From positions 1 through 64,000 of the IMG/VR virus record IMGVR_UViG_3300027861_000016: a stretch of 64,000 bases of DNA, one strand, 5' to 3'. The position numbers and the translations under genes are program-made. The notes beneath the pieces were generated by a model, which worked only from the letters and a program-made list of their open reading frames with translations, was not told the DNA's origin and did not search any database. The stretch is from a virus. This document shows positions 59,965 through 60,385 of this stretch, one piece after another. Within the stretch, counting starts at the first letter, position 1. The number at the start of each line of letters is the position of its first letter.

Positions 59965-60385
59965 AAACGGTGTGCTGAATTGCACCTTAAAAGAAGGGTA
60001 AGAAATTGCCTGGGCCGAAGTCTCGAACAAAGGGAACAAAGACTACACTCAATAGCTTGATACGGTTGAAATCCGTGCTCGTTCTCTTTTATCCAGTAGT
60101 TTATAACTTACAACTATAAACTAACAGCTTGAATTTAAGTTCACACTTATTACTTGAGGCTTCTATAATATCTTTTCTGTTCCCTTTTAAGATATATGTC
60201 TCAGACCTGTTGTATTCTATTAACTTCTATAGTAGACAATGATAGTAAATCTAAATTGTCGAAGAAGTGGCCCTGCGAGATACTAGGAGTGTAGCAAGCA
60301 TTGAAGAGTGCTTAACTATTAAACTGGATGGGTGATTCTCCTACAATCAAAATAACAAATCTTCATTTCTATTATTCTCACCAAA
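59965..60385 (+). ncRNA. Large multi-pseudoknotted structured RNA of unknown family
   Basis: No ORF in the track; more than 12 complementary segment pairs, including perfect 10-, 8- and 7-bp long-range helices and a GAAA tetraloop hairpin. Confidence 0.65.

What the first reader, a model, noticed from the sequence alone, without database searches (positions are those of the whole stretch)
59965..60385. Large, densely pseudoknotted non-coding RNA in the early region
Seen: ~420 nt with no ORF in the track, downstream of a consensus Bacteroidota promoter, packed with complementary segments. Long-range pairs: AAAGGGAACA (60029-38)/TGTTCCCTTT (60178-87, lying in the loop of hairpin ATATCTT/AAGATAT); CTACACTC (60043-50)/GAGTGTAG (60287-94); GGGCC (60012-16)/GGCCC (60269-73); TCTCG (60021-25)/CGAGA (60276-80); ATCCAGT (60091-97)/ACTGGAT (60323-29). 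Several 5' strands and their partners occur in the same order, which forces pseudoknots. Local hairpins: GGGTAA-GAAA-TTGCCT, TAGTTTATA/TATAAACTA, TGAGGC/GTCTCA, ACTTCT/AGAAGT with GACAAT/ATTGTC, AAGCATT-GAAG-AGTGCTT. The segment 60054-60085 (AGC-TTGA-TACGG-TTGAAAT-CCGTG-C-TCGTTCT) loosely resembles a group II intron domain V with an AGC triad. Inference: an ornate structural RNA or ribozyme, or an RNAII-like replication pre-primer, that I cannot assign to a known family.
Basis: partly seen in the sequence, partly recalled or inferred. Interest (0 to 1): 0.88.

Follow-up and report, generated by a model that had tools for sequence, protein, structure and literature searches.

The report
Long non-coding spacer in crAss-like phage
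The flagged 420 bases are real non-coding DNA in the longest gap between genes of a marine crAss-like phage and are probably transcribed, but the claimed dense pseudoknots are no more than chance, and no relatives exist to test any fold.

Summary
The letters are as described. All five long-range complementary pairs and the local hairpins exist, and no frame shows coding signal. The stretch lies in the longest intergenic region of the genome (59747-60433, 687 nt) and is GC-enriched (35.6%, against 30% for its arm).

The evidence for structure is weak:
- Dinucleotide shuffles give as many long helices (>=7 bp, P=0.44; the 10-bp helix, P=0.12).
- The fold z-score is -1.8, and 20% of ordinary windows in this genome do as well.
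- The minimum-energy fold uses nested alternative partners, so pseudoknots are not forced.
- The four mutually crossing helices have 2-4 nt linkers and could not form together.

The only full Bacteroidota-type promoter on the + strand (59750-59781) is real. A ~155-nt leader and a strong intrinsic terminator (to 59942) lie between it and the stretch.

Rfam gives nothing, even at E<=10. No homologue turned up in phage, IMG/VR, metagenome or genome collections, so covariation cannot be tested.

Best reading: an untranslated read-through RNA or long leader. It resembles the unexplained early long non-coding RNAs of Cellulophaga crAss-like phage phi14:2, one of which I found contains a tmRNA. This stretch is not a tmRNA.

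Two first-stage notes of this scan covered the same stretch on this genome; none was found on other DNA.

The parts
59543..59746 (+). Upstream gene: 67-aa hydrophobic small protein. Its stop codon marks the left edge of the spacer.
   Evidence: ORF list; positive codon score.
59750..59781 (+). Bacteroidota-type promoter, TTTG-N20-TACTTTTG. The start site is inferred at about 59788.
   Evidence: Only full match on the + strand of the 95,930-bp genome.
59788..59942 (+). Leader or small RNA of ~155 nt. It ends in an intrinsic terminator: GGAAAACCCU...AGGGUUUUC, enclosing the UUGAU-UUGGCG-AUCAA hairpin, then UUUUCUUUUUU.
   Evidence: Inverted repeats I1, I2 and I12. The fold of 59786-59946 gives -31.1 kcal/mol, z=-2.93.
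59965..60385 (+). The flagged stretch: non-coding, 35.6% GC, with no recognisable promoter or terminator of its own.
   Evidence: no Rfam match at E<=10.
60012..60273 (+). Best-folding nested core. It is closed by GGGCC/GGCCC and GAAGUCUCGA (60017-26)/UUGAGGCUUC (60154-63). Inside lies AAAGGGAAC (60029-37)/GUUCUCUUU (60081-89).
   Evidence: Helix list with pairing probabilities of 0.9-1.0. z=-2.66 on + against -1.53 on -, with boundaries chosen after the fact.
60434..60769 (+). Downstream gene: an orphan 111-aa protein with a signal-peptide-like N-terminus. No terminator separates it from the stretch.
   Evidence: ORF list. The only hit among 5.8 billion proteins is itself. The terminator scan finds no + strand terminator between the stretch and this gene.

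Best explanation
The stretch is the 3' two-thirds of a 687-nt non-coding spacer among the small early genes of a marine crAss-like phage, about 5 kb upstream of its DNA polymerase.

Most likely course of events:
1. Host RNA polymerase starts at the single consensus promoter, near 59788.
2. Most transcripts stop at the intrinsic terminator near 59942, giving a ~155-nt small RNA.
3. Transcripts that read through carry the flagged 420 nt as an untranslated RNA into the 111-aa gene and the genes after it. Read-through may be favoured when 59827-59851 pairs with 59890-59914 and so competes with the terminator stem.

The stretch would then be a long leader or non-coding RNA with an ordinary nested fold (core 60012-60273), not a pseudoknotted ribozyme. 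It would be comparable to the abundant early long non-coding RNAs of phage phi14:2.

Shown: the promoter motif, the terminator, the absence of coding signal, the raised GC and the strand bias of folding. Inferred: transcription, read-through and any function.
For: - It is the longest intergenic region of the genome.
- No coding signal appears in any frame.
- Its GC is in the top 2% of windows in its arm.
- The promoter is unique on the + strand.
- The terminator hairpin and leader fold with z=-2.93.
- No terminator lies between the stretch and the next ORF.
- All four tested segments fold better on + than on -: -2.66/-1.53, -2.71/-1.30, -2.50/-1.55 and -2.24/-0.71.
- Precedent: in phi14:2, two ~690-nt early intergenic regions are transcribed above most genes, and the transcripts persist through infection (bioRxiv 10.1101/2020.03.07.982082).
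- The gene order fits an early or replication arm.
Against: - No transcript data exist for this phage.
- A good terminator precedes the stretch, so it may be transcribed only weakly.
- Fold z-scores are within the range of ordinary coding windows of the same genome.
- No homologue exists to show selection on sequence or structure.
- Variant letters 60029 A>C and 60228 U>C break terminal pairs of predicted helices, and no compensating change was seen.
- There is no sequence or gene-order relation to the phi14:2 regions.
Confidence: 0.45

Rival explanations
1. Non-functional spacer. The stretch would be a remnant left by loss or exchange of small early genes, or a recombination scar. It would carry at most a weak promoter for the next gene, and its complementary segments would be chance.
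For: - Helix counts equal those of shuffles.
- z-scores are not outliers in this genome.
- The surrounding genes are orphans in a fast-evolving region.
- A sediment variant replaces 59944-60032 with 37 unrelated letters. This removes two hairpins and the GGGCC strand and points to mosaic turnover.
Against: - Phage genomes are tightly packed, and this is the longest gap in the genome.
- Non-coding DNA in AT-rich genomes is usually poorer in GC than the genes, yet this stretch is richer.
- No residual coding signal from a recently decayed gene is present.
- The unique consensus promoter points into the spacer.
- In the same variant, 60033-60083 is 51/51 identical beside the replaced part.
Confidence: 0.3
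2. One reading: a new, ornate and highly structured RNA or ribozyme held together by long-range pseudoknots. These would include the 10-bp pairing of 60029-38 with the hairpin loop 60178-87.
For: - The 10-bp perfect complement lies exactly in a 13-nt hairpin loop.
- GC is raised and folding is biased towards the + strand.
- The core 60012-60273 reaches z=-2.7 to -3.9.
- Large ornate RNAs are known from phages and often sit near tRNAs (GOLLD, ROOL; PMC12286853). A tRNA-like gene lies 900 nt downstream.
Against: - A 10-bp helix somewhere in the stretch has P=0.12 in shuffles, and helices of >=7 bp have P=0.44.
- 5-bp matches are expected by the dozen.
- Four of the five pairs cross one another with linkers of 2-4 nt and cannot form together (inference from the coordinates).
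- The 5' strands have nested partners of high probability.
- Variant letters at 60029 and 60032 weaken the 10-bp helix, and no change was listed in its partner.
- No Rfam hit and no homologue were found.
Confidence: 0.15
3. An RNA-primed or RNA-controlled replication element: an RNAII-like pre-primer with an antisense or kissing-loop control, that is, an origin.
For:
- The element lies upstream of the replication genes.
Against: - This spacer has no iterons or AT-rich unwinding tract, and its GC is raised.
- GC skew does not switch here.
- No antisense promoter matching the consensus is present.
- Iteron-like arrays sit in a different spacer, 54910-55090.
- The phage encodes its own primase and helicases.
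- No Rfam match to plasmid RNAs was found.
Confidence: 0.03
4. A very divergent tmRNA, like the one in the equivalent long spacer of phi14:2. The reading frame GRSLEQREQRLHSIA-stop (60013-60060) would be the tag.
For: - The phi14:2 spacer 3911-4601 holds a 470-nt tmRNA.
- The size is similar.
- The short frame begins with Gly and ends in Ile-Ala-stop just before a hairpin.
- The stretch ends in ...CACCA.
Against: - ARAGORN finds no tmRNA, standard or permuted, even at an 80% threshold. Its hits at 60% are noise.
- Rfam reports no tmRNA at E<=10.
- No GGGG 5' acceptor strand, no GGUUCGAAUCC-type T-arm and no acceptor pairing are present (compared).
- nhmmer with the phi14:2 tmRNA finds nothing in this genome.
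Confidence: 0.02

Closest known systems
The two early long non-coding RNAs of Cellulophaga crAss-like phage phi14:2 (g004-g005 and g005-g006 spacers; Drobysheva et al., bioRxiv 10.1101/2020.03.07.982082)
   Same: - The host phage is a marine crAss-like phage of Flavobacteriia-type hosts.
- The spacers are ~690 nt long (685 and 691 nt, against 687 nt here).
- They lie among small early genes upstream of the replication module, on the strand of the neighbouring genes.
- Their GC is a few points above the surroundings.
   Different: - No sequence similarity, no shared flanking genes and no covariance-model hit were found.
- One phi14:2 RNA contains a canonical tmRNA; this stretch does not.
- Expression is shown for phi14:2 and unknown here.
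GOLLD, ROOL and OLE large ornate RNAs (Rfam; cryo-EM structures in PMC12286853)
   Same: Large non-coding RNAs. GOLLD and ROOL are often phage-borne and lie near tRNA genes. This stretch is phage-borne and lies 900 nt from a tRNA-like gene.
   Different: - No Rfam match was found, even at E<=10.
- The stretch is shorter (420 nt, against ~580-800).
- Those families rest on hundreds of covarying homologues; this stretch has none.
Promoter-proximal attenuators and long structured 5' leaders of bacterial and phage operons
   Same: The layout matches: a promoter, a short structured leader, an intrinsic terminator with a competing upstream pairing, then a long untranslated run into the genes.
   Different: - No known riboswitch, T-box or leader family matches.
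- 490 nt after the terminator is unusually long.
- No regulatory ligand or factor is known.
Group II intron domain V
   Same: A short hairpin preceded by AGC (60054-60085).
   Different: - The loop has 7 nt rather than GNRA, and the stem has 5 bp.
- There is no 2-nt bulge, and the AGC is not paired as in D5.
- The position is near the 5' end rather than the 3' end.
- Neither Intron_gpII nor any D1-D4 family hits.

Membership tests
Any Rfam 15 family (including GOLLD, ROOL, OLE, HEARO, ARRPOF, group I/II introns, RNase P, tmRNA, 6S, plasmid RNAI) | Covariance-model score at or near the family's gathering threshold | tested here: not met
   Nothing at gathering in 64 kb except a tRNA at 61262. 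Within 59965-60385, nothing at E<=10 in searches of 801 nt and 496 nt.
tmRNA | tRNA-like domain: 5' GGGG acceptor strand pairing with the 3' end, a T-arm, and a tag reading frame | tested here: not met
   ARAGORN finds none at default or 80% thresholds. The canonical domain is visible in phi14:2 and absent here.
Group II intron (domain V) | 34-nt two-helix hairpin with a paired AGC triad, a 2-nt bulge and a GNRA loop, lying near the intron's 3' end | tested here: not met
   The fold gives UACGG/CCGUG with a 7-nt loop, and the AGC region pairs elsewhere. No Rfam intron hit.
phi14:2 early lncRNA 1 (2905-3589) and lncRNA 2/tmRNA (3911-4601) | Sequence or structure homology to the phi14:2 RNAs | tested here: not met
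   nhmmer in both directions shows no significant hit. Model R1 finds nothing in the whole phi14:2 record.
phi14:2-type early lncRNA (functional kind, not a homology family) | Abundant, persistent transcript from a long early intergenic region | not testable with these tools
   No RNA run holding this DNA was listed.
Conserved structured RNA (any new class) | Homologues with compensatory base changes | tested here: inconclusive
   No homologue in any collection. Only four near-identical read-sized contigs from three other runs were found. One of their changes improves a pair, two break pairs, and none is compensatory.
ColE1-type RNAII pre-primer / iteron origin | Origin features: iterons or an AT-rich unwinding element, an antisense RNA promoter, a skew switch | tested here: not met
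   No iterons, raised GC, no skew switch, and no consensus promoter on the - strand here.

The most novel reading that the evidence does not exclude
The spacer encodes a lineage-specific large non-coding RNA: the core 60012-60273, possibly with the 60029-38/60178-87 loop contact. It would be made early and persistently like the unexplained phi14:2 lncRNAs, with a host-takeover or anti-defence role. That would make it a new RNA class, so far seen in one sparsely sampled marine crAss-like lineage.
Probability: 0.2. Interest if true: 0.65.

Novelty: new member of a known kind. Interest (0 to 1): 0.3.

Why it matters
CrAss-like phages are among the most abundant viruses known. In the one marine member studied by RNA-seq (phi14:2), long early intergenic RNAs out-express most genes, and their roles were left undetermined. 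A second, unrelated example in another marine lineage would suggest such RNAs are a general feature of the group's early programme. With a unique host-type promoter, it would also give a compact candidate for experiments.

As it stands, the evidence shows an unusual non-coding spacer, not a demonstrated structured RNA. The value of this check is mostly in removing the pseudoknot, ribozyme and replicon claims. It also points out that one phi14:2 'lncRNA' contains a tmRNA.

Tried and rejected
Homologue searches, all blank for this spacer:
- blastn against 50,697 phage records.
- Exact patterns in IMG/VR, metagenome contigs and GTDB genome contigs.
- nhmmer/blastn against 55 loci around PNKP-phosphatase and capsid relatives, and against 80 loci around radical-SAM relatives.
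- blastn in whole records of ten relatives.
- Single-sequence covariance model R1 (60012-60165) over 1.75 Mb of loci and five whole records.

Neighbour-gene route:
- The 111-aa neighbour is an orphan, and the 393-aa neighbour has one weak hit.
- The closest capsid relatives are only 45% identical, and the closest PNKP relatives 70%.
- The PNKP protein found no relative in genome contigs.

Expression:
- No RNA holder was listed for this DNA.

Contig evidence from other runs:
- Three other marine or sediment runs hold only read-sized, near-identical pieces at depth 2. That is too little for covariation, and the parts without cover say nothing.

Hypotheses rejected:
- tmRNA.
- Recoded or decayed gene: stops occur in all frames and there is no codon signal.
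- Iteron origin.
- Paralogue elsewhere in the genome.
- Motif enrichment of AAAGGGAACA.

Technical:
- A first genome-wide z-score scan timed out and was replaced by smaller scans.

Full report
**Context.** The window is the first 64 kb of a 95,930-bp IMG/VR virus record. The record encodes a crAss-type major head protein, portal and large terminase. Its capsid protein is 33% identical to gut crAss-like phages and at most 45% identical to anything in IMG/VR. The one run holding the whole stretch is a seawater metagenome and may be the source of this DNA. From about 53.5 kb the genes run on the + strand. Small orphan genes, a radical-SAM protein and a PNKP-type phosphatase come first. DNA polymerase, ligase, helicases, primase and ribonucleotide reductase follow. 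The flagged stretch lies among the small genes, about 5 kb upstream of the polymerase. Calling this the 'early region' is therefore a reasonable inference from gene order.

The stretch lies in the longest intergenic region of the genome, 59747-60433, 687 nt. All six frames are broken by stops. A codon log-odds score trained on this phage's long genes is negative in every frame from 59700 to 60420, while both neighbouring genes are clearly positive. The DNA is therefore non-coding and not a recently decayed gene. Its GC content is 35.6%. That is in the top 6% of equal-sized windows genome-wide and the top 2% of its arm, which is unusual for non-coding DNA in an AT-rich genome.

**Is the complementarity more than chance?** No.
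- In 1000 dinucleotide-preserving shuffles of the 421 nt, perfect helices of 7 bp or more are as frequent as observed (6.2 expected, 7 seen, P=0.44). For 8 bp or more P=0.09, and the single 10-bp helix has P=0.12. The 5-bp pairs carry no weight.
- RNAfold gives z=-1.79 on the + strand and -0.67 on the - strand.
- Sliding 120-nt windows inside the stretch range from z=-1.1 to +0.6.
- Windows chosen after seeing the fold do better: 60012-60273 gives z=-2.66 and 60012-60165 gives z=-2.71.
- For calibration I folded 71 ordinary 262-nt windows of the same genome arm. Their mean z is -0.68 with sd 1.26; 20% reach -1.8 and 7% reach -2.66. The stretch is not an outlier.

The one consistent hint is strand bias. 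All four segments tested fold better on the + strand than on the - strand.

**Are pseudoknots forced?** No. In the minimum-energy fold the same 5' strands find nested partners with pairing probabilities of 0.9-1.0. GAAGUCUCGA (60017-26) pairs with UUGAGGCUUC (60154-63), and AAAGGGAAC (60029-37) pairs with GUUCUCUUU (60081-89). This is my inference from the coordinates. Same-order complementarity of this kind is what chance matches look like. The domain V resemblance also fails. The hairpin has a 7-nt loop and 5 bp, and the AGC pairs elsewhere.

**Transcription signals.** The promoter is real and notable. TTTG-N18-22-TAnnTTTG occurs once on the + strand of the whole genome, at 59750-59781. It is followed by a ~155-nt leader that folds well (z=-2.93). 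The leader ends in a long hairpin, GGAAAACCCU...AGGGUUUUC, and a run of Us up to 59942, which is a good intrinsic terminator. An upstream segment (59827-59851) can pair with the 5' half of that hairpin, so attenuation is conceivable. The flagged stretch starts after this terminator. It has no consensus promoter of its own and no terminator before the 111-aa ORF at 60434. The best-defined RNA gene here is therefore the short leader RNA. The flagged stretch would be read-through RNA, a long 5' leader, or the product of an unrecognised phage promoter.

**Known families.** Rfam 15 gives nothing at gathering thresholds apart from a tRNA at 61262. Inside the stretch it gives nothing at E<=10 in two narrow, permissive searches. 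This excludes recognisable GOLLD, ROOL, OLE, HEARO, group I/II introns, RNase P, tmRNA, 6S and plasmid antisense RNAs.

**Relatives.** I found none. Sequence searches of phage records, IMG/VR, metagenome contigs and GTDB contigs were blank. So were searches of 135 loci around relatives of three neighbouring or marker proteins, and of whole records of the nearest capsid relatives. This held for blastn, nhmmer and a single-sequence covariance model.

The only comparative data are four read-sized, near-identical contigs from three other marine or sediment runs:
- 60029 A>C and 60228 U>C break terminal pairs.
- 60221 is unpaired.
- One sediment contig replaces 59944-60032 with 37 unrelated letters. 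This deletes two hairpins and the GGGCC strand, while the next 51 nt stay identical.

This hints at a conserved core beside a variable edge. At depth 2, however, it proves nothing, and no compensatory change was seen.

**Precedent.** Drobysheva et al. (bioRxiv 10.1101/2020.03.07.982082) reported on the marine crAss-like phage phi14:2. Two long early intergenic regions there are transcribed rightward at higher levels than most genes, from the earliest time point and without later decline. The authors left the functions open. In the current record these gaps are 685 and 691 nt, with GC slightly above their surroundings, much like the 687-nt spacer here.

While checking them I found that the second gap holds a canonical 470-nt tmRNA. 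ARAGORN calls it with the tag GSSVQKLAMVA, Rfam gives E=7e-16, and it resembles tmRNAs annotated in other Cellulophaga phages. I therefore tested the tmRNA idea here. It fails on every defining feature, despite a tag-like frame ending in Ile-Ala-stop. There is also no homology or shared gene order with either phi14:2 region. The similarity is one of kind and position, not of family.

**Other readings.** A replication pre-primer or origin is unlikely:
- the spacer has no iterons;
- its GC is raised;
- there is no skew switch.

By contrast, the second-longest spacer (54611-55173) carries three families of 21-27-nt direct repeats, partly at 24-nt phasing. That makes it a better origin or regulatory candidate.

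**Verdict.** The letters are right, the non-coding status is solid, and the spacer is unusual in length, GC content and its unique promoter. The claim of an ornate, densely pseudoknotted RNA is not supported by statistics or folding, and no comparison is available to test it.

My estimates:
- About 0.45: an untranslated read-through or leader RNA of the phi14:2 kind with an ordinary nested fold.
- About 0.30: a functionless spacer.
- About 0.15: a truly ornate new RNA.
- The remainder: a replication element, a tmRNA, or something not considered here.

Interest is modest until transcript data or diverged homologues exist.

Noticed in passing
L058:4031-4500 (Cellulophaga phage phi14:2, NC_021806): One of the two 'long non-coding RNAs of unknown function' reported for phi14:2 (the g005-g006 spacer) contains a canonical tmRNA. 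ARAGORN gives the tag GSSVQKLAMVA*. Rfam gives 46 bits against a gathering score of 47, E=7e-16. No tmRNA is annotated there in the RefSeq record.
   Followed up: partly
window 54910-55090: The second-longest spacer (54611-55173) holds iteron-like direct repeats: 3x27 nt, 3x25 nt, and 3x21 nt at 24-nt spacing. It is a candidate replication origin or protein-binding array.
   Followed up: partly
window 61262-61383: A tRNA-like gene scores 48.5 bits in Rfam. ARAGORN calls it only with introns allowed, as tRNA-Glu(TTC) with a 45-nt insert after position 36. Its acceptor, D and T arms are intact.
   Followed up: partly
window 59788-59942: The best-defined RNA gene of the spacer is the short leader: a unique consensus promoter, a ~155-nt body with fold z=-2.93, and a strong intrinsic terminator. 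An upstream segment (59827-59851) can compete with the terminator stem.
   Followed up: partly
window 44479-47292 (- strand): The large terminase ORF is 937 aa. Residues ~190-370 hit DnaC-like loader and primase PHROGs ahead of the terminase domain, so it may carry an inserted or fused ATPase-like segment.
   Followed up: no
window 59944-60032: A contig from a sediment metagenome run replaces these 89 nt with 37 unrelated letters. The next 51 nt (60033-60083) stay identical, so the 5' edge of the stretch varies between strains.
   Followed up: no
window 52437-52467 (- strand): One of only two full Bacteroidota-type promoter matches on the - strand. It lies in the divergent region between the structural arm and the early arm.
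   Followed up: no
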